From Candidatus Saccharimonadota bacterium (lineage in GTDB: Bacteria > Patescibacteriota > Saccharimonadia > Saccharimonadales > 2-12-FULL-41-12), in the NCBI GenBank assembly GCA_022842995.1, contig JALHOM010000008.1:1-51400 (forward strand): DNA of 51,400 nucleotides, written 5' to 3'. Made by a program: the position numbers and the translations under genes. Each line of letters opens with the position of its first letter. The first letter of the stretch is position 1. This document shows positions 10,501 through 23,867 of the stretch, piece by piece. The notes beneath the pieces are model-generated. The model was not told where the DNA came from and did not search any database. It worked only from the letters and a program-made list of their open reading frames with translations.

Positions 10501-11364
10501 TTATTTTGCCGACCATTTACCGAAATTAACAGAGGCGACGCCTTTGATTTCGAGCATTGTTAAGTGGGTTTGAATAATCTGTGGTTCATGCACTCCCGCT
10601 ACGAGCAGTTCGTCAATGGTTGAGGGCTTTTTTGTAACTATGTCTAATATGTATTTTTCTATCTCATTTTCGGGCATGTAGGCTACGGCGTGACTTTGAT
10701 CTTTGATGTTAAGGATTTCTAGAATATCGGCCGTTTCTAGGACGGGGGTGGCGCCCTGTTTGATGAGGCGATTTGTTCCGCTACTCGTCGCACTGGTGAT
10801 GTTGCCAGGGACGGCTAAGACAGGAATCCCGAGATCGAGGGCGTAATGGGCAGTGTTGAGGCTGCCACTCGCTGTTGCCGCCTCTGTAATCAAGATGGCG
10901 TCGGCACAGGCAGCGATGAGCCTGTTGCGCTCTAAAAAGCGGTATTTAAGGATGGTTGCGTCGTCGGGCCTGTGCTCGCTTATGAGTAGTCCACCATTCT
11001 CGATAATTCTCGAGGCTAGGCCCAGGTGCGAGCGAGGGTAGATATGATTGATCCCCGATGGCAGTACGGCAATAGTTTGGCCGCCAGCATCTAGGCAAGC
11101 TCTGTGAGCCAGGCTGTCTATACCTAAAGCTAATCCACTAACGATAATGACCCCTGCTCTTGCGAGCTCACTGGCGAGCTTTGTCGTTACTGTTTGGCCG
11201 TAAGGGCTATATTTCCTGGCGCCGACTATGGCGACACGTGGCCTGCCGGTTTCGAGCAATGAAGTATCGCCCTTCCCTGTTAGTAACAGAGGTGGTTTAT
11301 GAAGCTGATGAATGGCTTCGGGGAGCGTAGCACCGCTTAAGCTTACTATTAATTCTTCTTGCAT
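10501..11364 (-). CDS. dprA: DNA-processing protein DprA
   Basis: VAIVGAR, IVSGLALGIDSLAH, FLERNRLIA and SGSLNTA motifs; C-terminal wHTH; dprA-topA synteny. Confidence 0.96.
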   Translation of the reverse strand: MQEELIVSLSGATLPEAIHQLHKPPLLLTGKGDTSLLETGRPRVAIVGARKYSPYGQTVTTKLASELARAGVIIVSGLALGIDSLAHRACLDAGGQTIAVLPSGINHIYPRSHLGLASRIIENGGLLISEHRPDDATILKYRFLERNRLIAACADAILITEAATASGSLNTAHYALDLGIPVLAVPGNITSATSSGTNRLIKQGATPVLETADILEILNIKDQSHAVAYMPENEIEKYILDIVTKKPSTIDELLVAGVHEPQIIQTHLTMLEIKGVASVNFGKWSAK

Positions 11365-11388
11365 TTATAACAAAATAGTTAATAAGTA

Positions 11389-11417
11389 TTGACATAGTCA
11401 AAGATTTTTGATATTAT
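11389..11417 (+). promoter_or_regulatory. Consensus-like promoter TTGACA-N17-TATTAT inside the inverted repeat ATTGACATA...TATGTCAAT
   Basis: Read directly; a second TTGACA lies on the minus strand. Confidence 0.65.
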
Positions 11418-11483
11418 GTCAATCTGTAAGCTTTGGAGTACTAAAGCTTATGTACCTTCCATACCCCCAATGTTAGATTGTTT

Positions 11484-11726
11484 TAGAGTGCACATGCCTG
11501 CATCGATAATCCCCTGCCCAGCGGGCAACCCGCTAGCCCGGAATTATCTTTCAGCGATCTGCTGCGTTACTTTATCCAATGCTCCCTTCATCGTACCACA
11601 GTACGACTCAGGTCCGCTTGAATAAAGTGCCTCGCATCTCATCTGAATGCAGACATGTGCAGGCTCTACTGGGAAAGGTAAATACCCTCCACCTCCTCCC
11701 GACTGTAGCCGACTCAGGGTTTACCT
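11484..11726 (-). ncRNA. Unidentified structured RNA candidate
   Basis: Helices of 15, 11 and 9 bp plus hairpins; six A-C mismatches on + become G-U pairs on -. Confidence 0.65.
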
Positions 11727-11933
11727 GGGTCCTCTAAAGCATACTAACCCCTTTAACCCCGCGTTCCCCCCTCGTGTTGATTGAGCTGTGGCGGATACGA
11801 CGGAAATACCTATGAGTGGGCTGACGAGTTCAATTGCGAGATTACTTGTCAGAGGCCTTCAAGGTGGGTTGAAGGGTGTTTTAGTGGGCTCGACGCGTTC
11901 GAGCCCGATAATGAACCTCCAGCGGTGCCCACC

Positions 11934-12110
11934 CCCTCTGGAGGTTCTTTATTTTACGCGGGAATTAACGACACTTCGCTCGCGACTACAAAAAGCCAAG
12001 CCCTTGGCTTTTTGCCCTCTGGAGGTTCTTTTTGATTTCAGGACAAGACGACGCTTCGCTCGTGACTACAGAATGGCAAGCCCTTGCCATTCTGCCCTCT
12101 GGAGGTTCTT
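11934..12110. repeat. Tandem array with 80-81-bp period, covarying hairpins and 17-18-nt variable segments
   Basis: CCCTCTGGAGGTTCTT at 11934, 12015 and 12095. Confidence 0.9.
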
Positions 12111-12138
12111 GCGATATGCTCAGGAACAGTACATTTTT

Positions 12139-12168
12139 TTGCAAATAAGCATAAACGTTTGGTATAAT
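12139..12168 (+). promoter_or_regulatory. Promoter TTGCAA-N18-TATAAT with extended -10
   Basis: 11 nt upstream of the ATG at 12180. Confidence 0.55.
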
Positions 12169-12179
12169 ATAAACCTAGT

Positions 12180-12761
12180 ATGTCGGTTGCATTACTAGAA
12201 ACAGGTCCTCAAGTGTCGTCCTGTTTCAGCGACCGCAGGAAACGAAGACAGGCTTGCCTTGACGAAGTTCAACGCATGGGGACTGTTGAGGCGCAGGGCC
12301 GAATTTATACTCGTGGAGAATTCTTTTTAGAACTCGATACTGCAACTCAGTCTGCATTGGCCGGGTTATTTTGTCATGTAGAACAGCATGGATACGGGCA
12401 AGTTTTAAATCAAGGCGTTGTACCGTCTCATATTGCTAGTGAAGGCTTTGCGCTGATGACGACAGAGTTTCGTACCGTCGGCGGGGTGCAAGTATTTTTG
12501 ACGAAGCACGAGATCCCTGATTCTATTGGTATGCGATCTATTTATAACGGAGGTTTTGGCCGTTATGCTAGATGCTCGAAGATTAGTAATGCAAAAGAAT
12601 CAGTTAAGTTTTTAACGTTTTTACCTGATAGGTATCATTACCAATCTTCTGATGATCTGCAGGCTCATTATTTACACGGTTCGCGTATCGTTAGAGAGCT
12701 AGCTGCGGTTGTCGGTATTCGGTTCTTGGACTCAATGCTAAACTACACGATTCACGAGTGA
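12180..12761 (+). CDS. Hypothetical protein (weak ADP-ribosyltransferase-fold resemblance)
   Basis: 193-aa ORF with its own promoter. Confidence 0.65.
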   Translation: MSVALLETGPQVSSCFSDRRKRRQACLDEVQRMGTVEAQGRIYTRGEFFLELDTATQSALAGLFCHVEQHGYGQVLNQGVVPSHIASEGFALMTTEFRTVGGVQVFLTKHEIPDSIGMRSIYNGGFGRYARCSKISNAKESVKFLTFLPDRYHYQSSDDLQAHYLHGSRIVRELAAVVGIRFLDSMLNYTIHE

Positions 12762-13602: not shown

Positions 13603-14598
13603 ATGCTAGGTGTAGAGGACAAAAACGAGATGGGAAGATTGCGGGAATCATTGCGTCTTCATCAGGCGCACATGGACCCCGTCTATCAGCAACTAGGTGC
13701 CGTTATGGCTGCTTCAGGCACTCCTCAGGGACGTAAAGTCACCGCACTTGCCGATCGGACGTTACGTTACGACGAAGAAACTAGACGGGCCAAAATCGAA
13801 CAGGAAACTCACAGTAGACGCATCAAGTATGCGGCTGAGAATAATTCATGCATTCTAACTGGATTAGTCGAGGGACTGCCAAAATACCACATGTCAAAGA
13901 GCCAAGATCTTTCTGAAAGTTTTTGTTGGTTTACGGTTGGCTCAAATGAGCTCCACAGGGCTAAGATCATACAGTCCCGAATTATTTGGGCTTCGATATT
14001 CAACTACGATCAGCCTCTGAAGTCGTGGCCCTGGAGGATGCGCCCGTTTTTTGTGATCGGCAGGAATGATACAGCGAGATCGGCACTATTAACTCCGGCA
14101 AGGATGCAGGACAGTACAAACCAGGAGAGTGTATACGAGGGCCATTTCGTATCAGAGCCAGCAAAACGTCTTAACAATGTGTCCGTTTACGAAGTCGCCC
14201 TTGGAGCCATTAGTTATAGGATGATGGGCCGACGAATAGCACTCGGTGCATTTGATTTTTATTCACCGGATGAGCTGGAGTTAATGCACGATCAGGTGAG
14301 CGGTAATTATGTAGTCAGTTATAGTTCACCTGGCTCAATGCATTTGACAAGCCGACTTAGTCCTTCTTTTATCGGGCGTTCAAATGCTCTCCGACGTAGG
14401 GGGAGTTGGATAGTGCCGGCGTTAAGTGATGAAGTGTGTAGAGATTTTAAAGTTGCTGAGCATTTACAAGGACTTGCGATTGCTTTTGGGCAGGCAGAAA
14501 GACTCGATGCAGCTTATGTGGAGATATTCAGAGATCAAAAACGACAGCGGGTTGCTGAAACAAGTCAAAGGCAGTACGCTATCTGTTTTGCCCGCTAG
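13603..14598 (+). CDS. Hypothetical protein
   Basis: 331-aa ORF with an upstream -10-like box; no recognised motif. Confidence 0.75.
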   Translation: MLGVEDKNEMGRLRESLRLHQAHMDPVYQQLGAVMAASGTPQGRKVTALADRTLRYDEETRRAKIEQETHSRRIKYAAENNSCILTGLVEGLPKYHMSKSQDLSESFCWFTVGSNELHRAKIIQSRIIWASIFNYDQPLKSWPWRMRPFFVIGRNDTARSALLTPARMQDSTNQESVYEGHFVSEPAKRLNNVSVYEVALGAISYRMMGRRIALGAFDFYSPDELELMHDQVSGNYVVSYSSPGSMHLTSRLSPSFIGRSNALRRRGSWIVPALSDEVCRDFKVAEHLQGLAIAFGQAERLDAAYVEIFRDQKRQRVAETSQRQYAICFAR

Positions 14599-22902: not shown

Positions 22903-23867
22903 GTAGTTTCGAGCCGATGAAAGAAGGGGATGAAATACGCATTATTGCGCCATCTATTAGTAAGTCACGAAGCAAAGATCAGCGTCGGTCCCAGCGTGCT
23001 AAGGAAAGACTAGAAAGCCTTGGCTATAAGGTTACTTTCGGTAATTACTTAGACGAGCAATATCAATTAGGAACAGCTAAAGCTGAAAGTAGGGCTAGAG
23101 ACTTTAATGAGGCTTACGCTGACAAAGATGTAAAAGCTGTAATGGCATTGACTGGTGGGTGGTCGGCAAATGAGATATTGCCCTTAATTGACTGGCAGAC
23201 AGTTGGAGCAAATCCAAAACCGTTGATTGGCTACTCCGATATAACAGTTTTAATAAACGCCATATATGCAAAAACTGGCATTGAAGGGTATCTTGGTCCT
23301 AATTTCCTAACTTTGAGCAGAATGATTTCTTGGCAATATACCTTAGATAATTTTCAAGCAGTGCTTAGACAAGGGTATCCATTACAGTTAAAACGGAGTC
23401 AGGTATGGGGTTCTAAGCCGTCAGCCCGATTTAAGACTAAGCCATGGAAGGTGCTACAGGCAGGAGGTGCAGAAGCCATATTGATTGGCGGGAACCTTGG
23501 TACTTTTTATCTGTTGCAAGGCACTGAGTATCAGCCAAAGTTTGATAAACCCTTTATTCTGGTGGCCGAAGATGATGACGAAAGCGGAAAAATGACCGCT
23601 CGCGAATTTTCTAGGCGACTTGAATCTATACTCCAACTACCAAATGTCCGTACCAATATACAAGGACTACTTATCGGTCGTTTCGAGCCGAACAGCAAAG
23701 TAACGCCTAAAGTCCTTGCGAGCATAGTAGAGTCAAAGCAGTTAGGCGATATCCCTGTCATAGCCGATGTGGACTTTGGTCACAATGCCCCTACACTAAC
23801 TTTGCCTATTGGCAGAAAAGCGAAGATAAGCACTAATAAAATCAGAATATCTATATGGAGAAATTAA
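22899..23867 (+). CDS. S66 family LD-carboxypeptidase/MccF-like peptidase
   Basis: IIAPS, IGYSDIT (Ser), GGNL, AED (Glu), DFGH (His). Confidence 0.93.
   Translation: MSSFEPMKEGDEIRIIAPSISKSRSKDQRRSQRAKERLESLGYKVTFGNYLDEQYQLGTAKAESRARDFNEAYADKDVKAVMALTGGWSANEILPLIDWQTVGANPKPLIGYSDITVLINAIYAKTGIEGYLGPNFLTLSRMISWQYTLDNFQAVLRQGYPLQLKRSQVWGSKPSARFKTKPWKVLQAGGAEAILIGGNLGTFYLLQGTEYQPKFDKPFILVAEDDDESGKMTAREFSRRLESILQLPNVRTNIQGLLIGRFEPNSKVTPKVLASIVESKQLGDIPVIADVDFGHNAPTLTLPIGRKAKISTNKIRISIWRN

What the first reader, a model, noticed from the sequence alone, without database searches (positions are those of the whole stretch)
11484..11726. Orphan multi-helix structured RNA candidate upstream of dprA, with strand-diagnostic G-U pairs
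Seen: a 15-bp helix 11489-11503/11647-11661, extended by TAGAG/CTCTA; an 11-bp helix 11569-11579/11618-11628 enclosing the TCGTAC/GTACGA hairpin; a 9-bp helix 11505-11513/11540-11548 enclosing an 8-bp hairpin; and a further domain 11676-11688/11716-11726 with an inner hairpin. All six non-Watson-Crick positions in these helices are A-C on + and therefore G-U on -, the pattern expected from selection on a minus-strand single-stranded structure. I could not find the hallmark motifs of tmRNA, RNase P, SRP or group I/II introns. The closed 185-nt core is 6S-sized but carries an atypical 44-nt side arm. Inference: a divergent housekeeping RNA or a new ncRNA/ssDNA structure, lying 5' of and co-oriented with the competence gene dprA.
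Basis: partly seen in the sequence, partly recalled or inferred. Interest (0 to 1): 0.85.

Follow-up and report, generated by a model that had tools for sequence, protein, structure and literature searches.

The report
Structured repeat nested backwards in RNA gene
The flagged fold is real, but it is one copy of a roughly 155-base, three-armed repeat scattered through Saccharibacteria genomes, inserted backwards into a hairpin of a larger conserved RNA gene, which shows how mobile folded modules can enlarge essential RNAs.

Summary
The helices are present at the stated coordinates. All six non-Watson-Crick pairs of the closed core are A-C on + and G-U on - (fold -62.8 versus -93.0 kcal/mol).

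The element is not an orphan RNA and not a leader of dprA. It lies inside a larger + strand RNA gene (about 11424-11955). That gene has a near-consensus promoter, a terminator with an invariant loop, covarying helices and conserved topA-dprA / RNA / pth synteny in 135 Saccharimonadales loci. No Rfam family matches it.

The closed core (11484-11668) is a copy of a multi-copy, roughly 155-nt, three-way-junction repeat that I call M. A covariance model built only from sense-strand insertions in three other genomes hits the window full length on the minus strand (41 bits, E 2.4e-9).

- M occurs 0-20 times per genome in 39 of 61 relatives.
- This genome has eight matches, including one inside the RNase P RNA gene and one between rplU and rpmA.
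- In 22 copies, 38 of 42 pairs show compensatory changes, and the model-hit strand folds better in 21.

The minus-strand G-U signature is therefore the repeat's own polarity: it was inserted in reverse into the loop of hairpin P3.1. Whether this copy still acts on its own strand is unresolved. No RNA data exist for this organism.

The parts
11389..11417 (+). Promoter of the host RNA: -35 TTGACA (11389-94), 17-nt spacer, extended -10 TGATATTAT. It overlaps the divergent dprA promoter on the minus strand (11401-11372).
   Evidence: scores it 11 of 12 with a TG extension. All 135 homologous loci have TTGACA (122) or TTGACT (13), a 16-18-nt spacer and a -10 of the TGCTAAAAT type.
11424..11955 (+). 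Host gene: the conserved Saccharimonadales dprA-pth non-coding RNA (about 532 nt here, about 300-450 nt in most relatives). Helices P1, P3ext/P3, P3.1 (holding the insert), P3a/P3b, P3c, P4, P5 and P6.
   Evidence: The + fold is -207.5 kcal/mol with z -8.3 and contains all family helices. 50 of 61 relatives match by blastn and 120 or more species genomes match by pattern. Synteny holds in 109-117 of 135 loci. The + strand folds better in 122 of 133 homologues. No Rfam hit in the window or in 20 relatives' loci.
11472..11488 (+). 5' strands of P3ext (GUUAG 11472-76) and P3 (11478-88). They pair with 11732-11748 and bracket the whole P3 domain, including the insert.
   Evidence: On a sequence-only MAFFT alignment of 88 homologues, 92.8% of cells are paired, 17 of 23 pairs change on both sides, and 0 of 500 shuffles reach this. 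G-U on + outnumbers A-C by 95 to 13. The window itself has U11481-G11739.
11484..11668 (-).
   Evidence: The base UGCAC...GUGCA is the pre-existing hairpin P3.1. L011 shows the empty site UGCAC-UUCUAA-GUGCA.
11499..11654 (-). Core of the M repeat as defined by the covariance model. It is a three-way junction. Arm A (11549-11646) ends in the conserved tip CGGACC-UGAG-UCGUAC-UGUG-GUACGA-UGAAGGGAG (tip hairpin 11591-11606). Arm B is 11505-11548.
   Evidence: Model R1, built only from L112, L141 and L033, matches full length on the minus strand at 41 bits, E 2.4e-9. The sense fold is -71.9 against -46.9 kcal/mol for the antisense. Four compensatory double changes and three one-sided WC/A-C(+) changes are seen against sister lineages.
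11662..11731 (+). Host RNA hairpins P3a (11662-69/11708-13), P3b (11672-11700, invariant loop UACCCUCCAC 11683-92) and P3c (11714-31).
   Evidence: The loop TTACCCTCCAC is found in all 30 first loci. The P3b stem covaries. The + strand MFE forms these hairpins.
11732..11759 (+). P3 and P3ext 3' strands (CUCUAAAGCA 11732-41, CUAAC 11744-48) and the P4 5' strand (CCCUUUAACCC 11749-59).
   Evidence: P4 has an invariant U-G on + in 122 of 123 homologues.
11866..11955 (+). P4 3' strand (GGGUUGAAGGG 11866-76), P5 (11886-11906), terminator hairpin P6 (11913-22/11938-47) with the invariant loop CGGUGCCCACCCCCU (11923-37), and the U tail (11948-55).
   Evidence: In 123 homologues P6 has 1248 WC, 49 G-U(+) and 0 A-C(+) cells, with rich covariation. 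The loop is invariant.
10501..11364 (-). dprA, divergent from the host RNA gene.
   Evidence: Pfam DNA_processg_A, E 2.9e-68. Synteny in 117 of 135 loci.

Best explanation
The flagged structure is one copy of a dispersed, non-autonomous, roughly 155-nt structured repeat of Saccharimonadales, here called M. M folds as a three-way junction with a closing stem, a long arm ending in the conserved tip ..CGGACC-UGAG-nCGUAC-loop-GUACGn-UGAAGG.., and a second hairpin arm.

**Shown**
- This copy sits in reverse orientation in the loop of hairpin P3.1 of the conserved dprA-pth non-coding RNA.
- The host RNA is read from the + strand, from a consensus promoter to a terminator with an invariant loop.
- M's fold is kept by compensatory change on one defined strand in all copies. 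The G-U pairs on the window's minus strand are the repeat's own polarity, not a sign of a gene serving dprA.

**Inferred**
- M entered the loop of a pre-existing small hairpin. Relatives show the empty site, and other copies are likewise flanked by short inverted repeats.
- Other M copies entered P2 of the same RNA in other lineages and the RNase P RNA of this genome.
- In the + strand transcript the copy forms the mirror-image closed hairpin, with A-C mismatches, and is carried as a peripheral expansion segment.
- Selection keeps it closed. The core is 92% identical to a sister lineage, against 72-75% for the flanking genes.

**Not decided**
Whether the copy also acts in its own polarity, as an antisense RNA or as single-stranded DNA.
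For: **Identity as an M copy**
- Model R1 was built only from sense-strand inserts of L112, L141 and L033. It matches window 11654->11499 on the minus strand, full length, at 41 bits and E 2.4e-9.
- The same model matches the sister contig L152 on the strand antisense to its RNA gene.

**The family**
- 39 of 61 relatives carry M, at 0-20 copies per genome. G000 has 8 matches.
- These include C1:23251-23383, inside the RNase P RNA gene (C1:22972-23534, same strand), and the rplU-rpmA spacer on C2.
- In 22 copies, 87.8% of cells are paired, 38 of 42 pairs change on both sides, and 0 of 500 shuffles reach this.
- The sense strand folds better in 21 of 22 copies, by 11.9 kcal/mol on average. For this copy the gap is 25.0.

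**Host RNA on the + strand**
- A consensus promoter precedes all 135 loci.
- In 122 of 133 homologues the + strand is the more stable. The window is the most extreme outlier (+20.3 kcal/mol), and the insert alone accounts for this.
- In the host helices, G-U on + outnumbers A-C by 367 to 24.
- P3, which brackets the insert, covaries.

**Insertion into a hairpin loop**
- L011 has UGCAC-UUCUAA-GUGCA at the same place.
- Most of the 22 copies are flanked by short inverted repeats.

**Conservation of this copy**
- The insert is 92% identical to L152. dprA is 72% and pth 74%.
- There are four compensatory double substitutions: 11522/32, 11525/29, 11574/11623 and 11587/11610.
Against: - There is no expression data for this organism, so the strand of the host RNA and the silence of the minus strand both rest on sequence evidence.
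- How M moves is unknown. No target-site duplication, transposase or reverse transcriptase was found, and copies within one genome are too diverged for blastn. 'Mobile' is therefore inferred from patchy, multi-copy distribution and from filled versus empty sites.
- If only the + strand RNA were under selection, the A-C mismatches should tend to be repaired. Five are shared by all three lineages, and all three one-sided changes toggle WC and A-C(+). This also fits continuing selection on the minus strand.
- The alignment used for M covariation was fitted to the model.
- E-values from the short calibration are rough.
Confidence: 0.8

Rival explanations
1. The nested M copy is still active in its own polarity. 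The minus strand would be expressed as an antisense RNA, or exposed as single-stranded DNA, and its three-way-junction fold would be what selection maintains here. It might regulate or insulate the host RNA gene, or serve as a substrate for whatever machinery recognises M.
For: - All six non-WC pairs are G-U on the minus strand, and five are shared by three lineages.
- The three one-sided polymorphisms all toggle WC and G-U(-).
- Four double compensations are present.
- The M-specific tip motif is intact.
- The core is far better conserved than the flanking genes.
Against: - No sigma-70-type promoter lies on the minus strand between 11420 and 12600.
- None lies upstream, in M sense, of any of the 22 copies examined.
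- Terminator-like hairpins at 11998-12010 (found by the scan) and about 12070-12095 (read by eye) lie between pth and the RNA gene.
- With only 7.5% divergence in the insert, five unchanged A-C pairs are not surprising.
- GC skew makes the + strand the leading strand, so the minus-strand sequence is not the one most exposed during replication or during transcription of the host RNA.
Confidence: 0.17
2. One reading: an independent, orphan minus-strand structured RNA gene, either a divergent housekeeping RNA such as 6S or a new ncRNA, lying 5' of dprA and acting with it.
For: The minus-strand fold is very stable. There is no Rfam match. The orientation is the same as dprA.
Against: - The element is multi-copy and patchily distributed.
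- It is nested between the two strands of a covarying + strand helix.
- It has no promoter or terminator of its own.
- dprA has its own promoter next to its start codon.
- 115 of 117 relatives with the same dprA arrangement do not have the strict tip motif in antisense orientation inside the RNA gene.
- The 6S architecture, a closing stem plus a central bubble, is absent.
Confidence: 0.03
3. An ordinary expansion segment that grew in place on the + strand RNA, or was flipped by recombination between the arms of its own closing stem. On this view the A-C excess is a chance or historical artefact and there is no relation to any repeat family.
For: - Other members of the host RNA family carry large, unrelated expansions at P2, P3a, P3c and elsewhere that the M model does not match.
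- L003 and L004 have 53- and 101-nt expansions at the same hairpin.
Against: - The M model, built from other genomes, matches full length on the minus strand.
- The conserved tip motif and the arm order are shared.
- The same module is found in RNase P RNA and in intergenic spacers.
- Nine of nine wobble-type positions point to the minus strand.
Confidence: 0.03

Closest known systems
Rickettsia palindromic elements (RPE) and bacterial MITE-like structured repeats (Correia/CREE, ERIC/IRU, RUP, BOX, REP/REPIN). Their properties are given from my own knowledge of the literature.
   Same: - Short (about 100-170 bp), non-autonomous and multi-copy.
- Patchy between related genomes.
- Fold into a closed hairpin-like structure.
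- Tolerated inside transcribed units. For RPEs this includes protein genes and RNA genes, at sites that do not destroy function.
- Here 1 of 22 copies lies in a fully open reading frame.
   Different: - M is a three-way junction with a conserved internal-loop tip, not a simple palindrome.
- Copies are so diverged that blastn does not link them, yet 38 of 42 pairs covary and the fold is strand-specific.
- No terminal inverted repeats of fixed sequence and no target-site duplication were seen.
- No cognate transposase is known.
- No paper in the library links such repeats to Patescibacteria.
Expansion segments and intervening sequences of rRNA, and variable peripheral helices of RNase P RNA such as P12
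   Same: - A lineage-specific, self-closed extra domain sitting at the tip of a peripheral helix of a conserved structured RNA.
- In this genome the same module also enlarges RNase P RNA, to 563 nt against about 350.
   Different: - Here the extra domain can be traced to a dispersed repeat family.
- In the window it lies in the reverse orientation, so the host transcript carries the complement of the module.
Large lineage-restricted bacterial ncRNAs of unknown function (OLE, raiA motif, ROOL, GOLLD). This comparison is for the host RNA.
   Same: It is a 300-550-nt, highly structured, strongly conserved, promoter-to-terminator RNA restricted to one lineage, with invariant loops.
   Different: - There is no sequence or structure match to any Rfam family.
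- The exact motif was found only within Saccharimonadales (0 of about 376 genomes from other orders of the phylum).
- It holds a fixed place between dprA and pth.
6S RNA (RF00013)
   Same: The size of the closed core (about 185 nt) and its long irregular helix.
   Different: - No Rfam match on either strand.
- It is a three-way junction rather than a closing stem, central bubble and terminal stem.
- It is multi-copy and has no promoter of its own.

Membership tests
   Window 11654->11499 on the minus strand, model positions 1-155 of 155, 41 bits, E 2.4e-9. The window was not in the training set.
   Fold. The strict motif gives 3 matches in G000 and 0 for the reversed control. The looser motif gives 6 matches and 0 for the control.
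   21 of 22 copies, by 11.9 kcal/mol on average. This copy: -71.9 against -46.9.
   39 of 61 genomes, 0-20 copies each, 8 in G000.
Saccharimonadales dprA-pth RNA (host gene) | Conserved promoter, blocks B1-B5, invariant P6 loop, and synteny with dprA and pth | tested here: met
Saccharimonadales dprA-pth RNA (host gene) | Covarying helices with G-U on the promoter-to-terminator strand | tested here: met
   17 of 23 pairs, 0 of 500 shuffles. G-U(+) 367 against A-C(+) 24.
6S RNA | Match to RF00013, or a closing stem with a central bubble | tested here: not met
   No hit at E up to 10 on either strand. The fold is a three-way junction.
RNase P RNA / tmRNA / SRP RNA | Rfam match at this locus | tested here: not met
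   RNase P RNA is at G000:C1:22972-23534. tmRNA lies elsewhere in the relatives. Neither SRP model finds anything in 13 genomes, and PF00448 (the SRP54-type GTPase of Ffh and FtsY) is absent from 12 of 13.
Retron msr-msd or other reverse-transcribed template RNA | A reverse transcriptase gene in the genome | tested here: not met
   PF00078 is absent from G000, which is 96% complete.
MITE | Fixed terminal inverted repeats and a target-site duplication | tested here: inconclusive
   The flanks of 22 copies show variable inverted repeats that extend the closing stem. No direct duplication was seen by eye.
IS200/IS605-derived element (PATE) or TnpB/IscB guide RNA scaffold | Co-occurring TnpA, TnpB or IscB gene, with a guide segment next to the scaffold | not tested
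HEARO (RF02033) did not match.

The most novel reading that the evidence does not exclude
M is a strand-specific mobile module that targets hairpin loops and seeds expansion segments in housekeeping RNAs (RNase P RNA and the dprA-pth RNA). Its recognised form would be a folded single strand, either RNA or single-stranded DNA. The reverse-oriented copy in this window would still be read in its own polarity. That would make this locus a natural case of two overlapping, oppositely oriented structured nucleic acids under simultaneous selection.
Probability: 0.17. Interest if true: 0.8.

Novelty: new variant of a known kind. Interest (0 to 1): 0.6.

Why it matters
- **A resolved puzzle.** A domain whose wobble pairs point to the 'wrong' strand of a well-supported RNA gene is explained by tracing it to a dispersed repeat with its own polarity.
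- **Origin of expansion segments.** This is direct sequence evidence that expansion segments of conserved bacterial RNAs can arise by insertion of a ready-made folded module into a peripheral hairpin loop, in either orientation. The same module enlarges RNase P RNA in this genome and helix P2 of the dprA-pth RNA in other lineages.
- **Undescribed elements.** Neither the repeat family nor the host RNA is in Rfam. No paper found in the library searches describes either. They occur in ultra-small genomes where non-coding DNA is scarce, so their retention needs explaining.
- **Annotation.** RNA-gene finders will mis-size or miss RNase P RNA and other RNAs that carry M.

Tried and rejected
- **Known RNA families.** cmscan found nothing in the window (gathering threshold), in 11300-12300 (E up to 10), in 20 relatives' loci, or in four other M loci.
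- **Divergent SRP RNA.** Neither SRP model finds anything in 13 genomes, but the SRP54-type GTPase (PF00448) is also absent from 12 of 13. There is no protein partner, so this was dropped.
- **tmRNA or RNase P RNA.** Both lie elsewhere.
- **Retron-like or reverse-transcribed template.** This would explain complementary-strand selection, but the genome has no reverse transcriptase.
- **Inversion between the arms of the closing stem.** Superseded by the model hit showing a whole M copy in reverse.
- **Genome-wide antisense bias.** The enlarged RNase P RNA folds better on its sense strand, -243.4 against -214.7 kcal/mol.
- **Phage or plasmid origin.** No blastn match in phages or plasmids, and no exact match in IMG/VR.
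- **Phage copies of the P6 loop as attP sites.** 24 of 25 have unrelated stems, so they are not copies of the gene's 3' end.
- **Expression data.** No RNA run holds this sequence. Metatranscriptome contigs hold only relatives' conserved 3' module and carry no strand information.
- **Other expansions of the host RNA.** L138, L044, L064, L027, L013, L086, L130, L101, L003 and L004 are not M.
- **Neighbouring ORFs.** 12180-12761 and 13603-14598 have no Pfam domain.

Full report
**1. The observation**

- The 243-nt stretch 11484-11726 folds to -115.6 kcal/mol on the minus strand (z -8.3) and to -81.7 on the plus strand (z -5.0). No shuffle did as well on either strand.
- The 173-nt closed core 11489-11661 gives -62.8 on + and -93.0 on -.
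- In the minus-strand fold of the core, six pairs are G-U and therefore A-C on +: 11497/11653, 11511/11542, 11519/11535, 11555/11641, 11576/11621 and 11590/11607. None is G-U on +.

The observation, including the strand claim, holds.

**2. The surroundings: a larger + strand RNA gene**

A blastn search of 11430-11960 against 60 relatives hit 50 genomes. The hits fell only in blocks on either side of the flagged core, never in the core. The distance between those blocks is 256-345 nt in most relatives and 482 nt here.

I extracted 135 homologous loci from the relatives and from a pattern scan of species genomes, nearly all titled Saccharibacteria or Saccharimonadales.
- Every locus has a near-consensus promoter, TTGACA or TTGACT, a 16-18-nt spacer and a -10 of the TGCTAAAAT type, pointing the same way.
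- Every locus ends in a covarying stem with the invariant loop CGGUGCCCACCCCCU and a U tail.
- The gene lies between a divergent topA-dprA pair and a convergent pth in 109-117 of 135 loci.

Evidence that the RNA is read from the + strand:
- The promoter-to-terminator strand folds better in 122 of 133 homologues, by 12.4 kcal/mol on average.
- In helices P3, P3ext, P3b, P4 and P6, G-U on that strand outnumbers A-C by 367 to 24.
- On a sequence-only alignment of 88 homologues, P3 and P3b show 92.8% paired cells and 17 of 23 pairs with changes on both sides. None of 500 shuffles reaches this, and sliding the partner drops pairing to 51% or less.

No Rfam family matches the window or 20 relatives' loci. 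RNase P RNA lies elsewhere in this genome, and tmRNA lies elsewhere in the relatives. The exact 3' motif was found in none of about 376 genomes from other orders of the phylum.

In the window the RNA runs from about 11424 to 11955. Its + strand MFE (-207.5 kcal/mol, z -8.3) contains P1, P3ext, P3, the flagged hairpin, P3a/P3b, P3c, P4, P5 and P6.

**3. The anomaly**

The window is the most extreme outlier of the family: its minus strand is favoured by 20.3 kcal/mol, and the insert alone accounts for this. Other large expansions of the family favour the + strand by 6.5-22 kcal/mol, apart from one that is roughly neutral (L138, +3.6). The enlarged RNase P RNA of the same genome favours its sense strand by 28.7 kcal/mol. 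This is therefore not a genome-wide bias.

**4. The insert is conserved and its pairs are maintained**

DNA contigs from other metagenomes, and the metagenome contig L152, carry the same insert in two further lineages.

Nucleotide identity between the window and L152:

| Region | Identity |
|---|---|
| dprA | 72% |
| pth | 74% |
| Insert | 92% |
| 5' part of the host RNA | 100% |
| 3' part of the host RNA | 95% |

Of the 13 substitutions in the insert, eight form four compensatory pairs:
- 11522/11532, C-G to U-A
- 11525/11529, G-C to C-G
- 11574/11623, A-U to U-A
- 11587/11610, U-A to C-G

The three one-sided changes at paired positions (11519, 11575, 11581) all switch between a Watson-Crick pair and A-C(+), which is G-U(-). 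L152's insert shows the same bias, -64.9 on + against -92.5 on -.

**5. What the insert is**

A weak blastn hit linked window 11582-11616, in reverse complement, to the P2 expansion of the same RNA in L112. Alignment showed that the reverse complement of the window's insert shares three features with the sense-strand P2 inserts of L112, L141 and L033:
- the arm order;
- the tip motif CGGACC-GAG-nCGUAC-loop-GUACGn-UGAAGGGAG;
- the second hairpin arm.

I built a covariance model from those three sequences alone. It matches the window at 11654->11499 on the minus strand, full length, at 41 bits and E 2.4e-9. It also matches L152 on the strand antisense to its RNA gene.

Searched over 61 genomes, the model finds 0-20 copies per genome in 39 of them. 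G000 has eight matches, among them:
- C17, C3, C11 and C4;
- the rplU-rpmA spacer on C2;
- C1:23251-23383, which lies inside the RNase P RNA gene on the same strand and explains why that RNA is 563 nt long.

For 22 copies from 16 genomes:
- 87.8% of cells are paired and 38 of 42 pairs change on both sides. None of 500 shuffles reaches this. The alignment was fitted to the model.
- The model-hit strand folds better in 21 of 22 copies, by 11.9 kcal/mol on average.
- None has a promoter upstream in its own sense.
- Most are flanked by short, variable inverted repeats, as if sitting in the loop of a hairpin.
- One lies in a fully open reading frame.

Relatives of the same family show the empty site at P3.1, for example UGCAC-UUCUAA-GUGCA in L011. 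Other big expansions of the host RNA are not M. Copies within G000 are too diverged for blastn. There is no match in phage, plasmid or IMG/VR collections.

**6. Reading**

The flagged domain is an M repeat inserted in reverse into the P3.1 loop of the dprA-pth RNA. The 'strand-diagnostic' G-U pairs are the repeat's own polarity. In the + transcript the copy forms the mirror-image closed hairpin and behaves as an expansion segment.

How M spreads is not shown. I found no reverse transcriptase and no target duplication, and I did not test for IS200/IS605-type genes.

Whether this copy is still selected on its own strand stays open.
- For: nine of nine wobble-type positions point to the minus strand.
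- Against: there is no minus-strand promoter; terminator-like hairpins lie between pth and the RNA gene (for 11998-12010; the second at about 12070-12095 was read by eye); and the insert's low overall divergence makes five unchanged A-C pairs unsurprising.

**7. Comparison and novelty**

M works like the MITE- and RPE-type structured repeats that are tolerated inside genes (from my own knowledge of those families). It differs in three ways: it is a three-way junction, it shows deep strand-specific covariation, and its copies are very diverged. It is not in Rfam, and no paper in the library links such repeats to Patescibacteria.

Earlier notes of this scan describe both the host RNA and a 156-168-nt three-armed Saccharibacteria repeat. 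I reached both independently from the sequence before reading them, and I tested the parts used here.

What is specific to this window:
- the nested, reverse-oriented arrangement;
- the population-level compensatory changes;
- the link between M and the enlargement of RNase P RNA.

**8. Verdict**

The thing is a new variant of a known kind, a dispersed structured repeat, sitting inside an undescribed conserved RNA. Interest is moderate to high as a worked example of how expansion segments arise.

Noticed in passing
window 11934-12110: The last 17 nt of the host RNA gene (CCCTCTGGAGGTTCTTT) recur three times at an 80-bp period. Each of the two full units also holds a bidirectional terminator-like hairpin. 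The sister contig L152 has two copies of the 17-mer. This looks like tandem duplication of the gene's 3' end.
   Followed up: partly
G000:C1:22972-23534 (M copy at 23251-23383): The RNase P RNA of this genome is 563 nt, against about 350 in relatives. The extra domain is a sense-oriented M copy in a peripheral helix.
   Followed up: partly
G000 and 12 relatives (whole genomes): Neither the small nor the large bacterial SRP RNA model finds anything in 13 of 13 Saccharimonadales genomes. The SRP54-type GTPase domain of Ffh and FtsY (PF00448) is absent from 12 of 13. All 14 control genomes are positive for PF00448. The SRP pathway may be missing from this lineage.
   Followed up: partly
G000 (whole genome): No tmRNA match above the Rfam cut-off in G000 (nor in G001), although 27 of 31 genomes searched have one. 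It may be unassembled or disrupted by an insert.
   Followed up: no
L153-L177 (IMG/VR contigs): The invariant P6 loop AGCGGTGCCCACCCCCTCT occurs in 25 viral contigs. In 24 of them it sits on hairpins with unrelated stems. These are independent displays of the loop, not copies of the gene's 3' end.
   Followed up: partly
G000:C2:16713-16828 (L184, L193): An M copy fills the spacer between rplU (L21) and rpmA (L27), in the sense of the operon.
   Followed up: partly
G000:C11:21061-22238 (L186): A tandem array of units about 357 nt long lies upstream of, and opposite to, a dnaK-like gene. Each unit contains an M-like tip hairpin (CUGAAGCGUACUUUUAGUACGCUGAGG) and a second conserved hairpin.
   Followed up: no
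window 12180-12761 and 13603-14598: Two ORFs without Pfam domains lie between or beside the RNA gene and pth. Homologues were found in only 1-2 of 135 related loci. They look like lineage-specific inserted DNA next to the duplicated RNA 3' end.
   Followed up: partly
window 11389-11420: The promoters of dprA and of the host RNA overlap back to back in a near-palindrome (TTGACAT...ATGTCAA), so the -35 of each overlaps the -10 region of the other. The arrangement is conserved in relatives.
   Followed up: partly
host RNA family (e.g. L012, L018): GUUAGA can pair either with UCUAAC (hairpin P2) or with ACUAAY downstream of P3 (P3ext). The two pairings exclude each other, which suggests a possible conformational switch. 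The window's family lacks the P2 5' strand.
   Followed up: no
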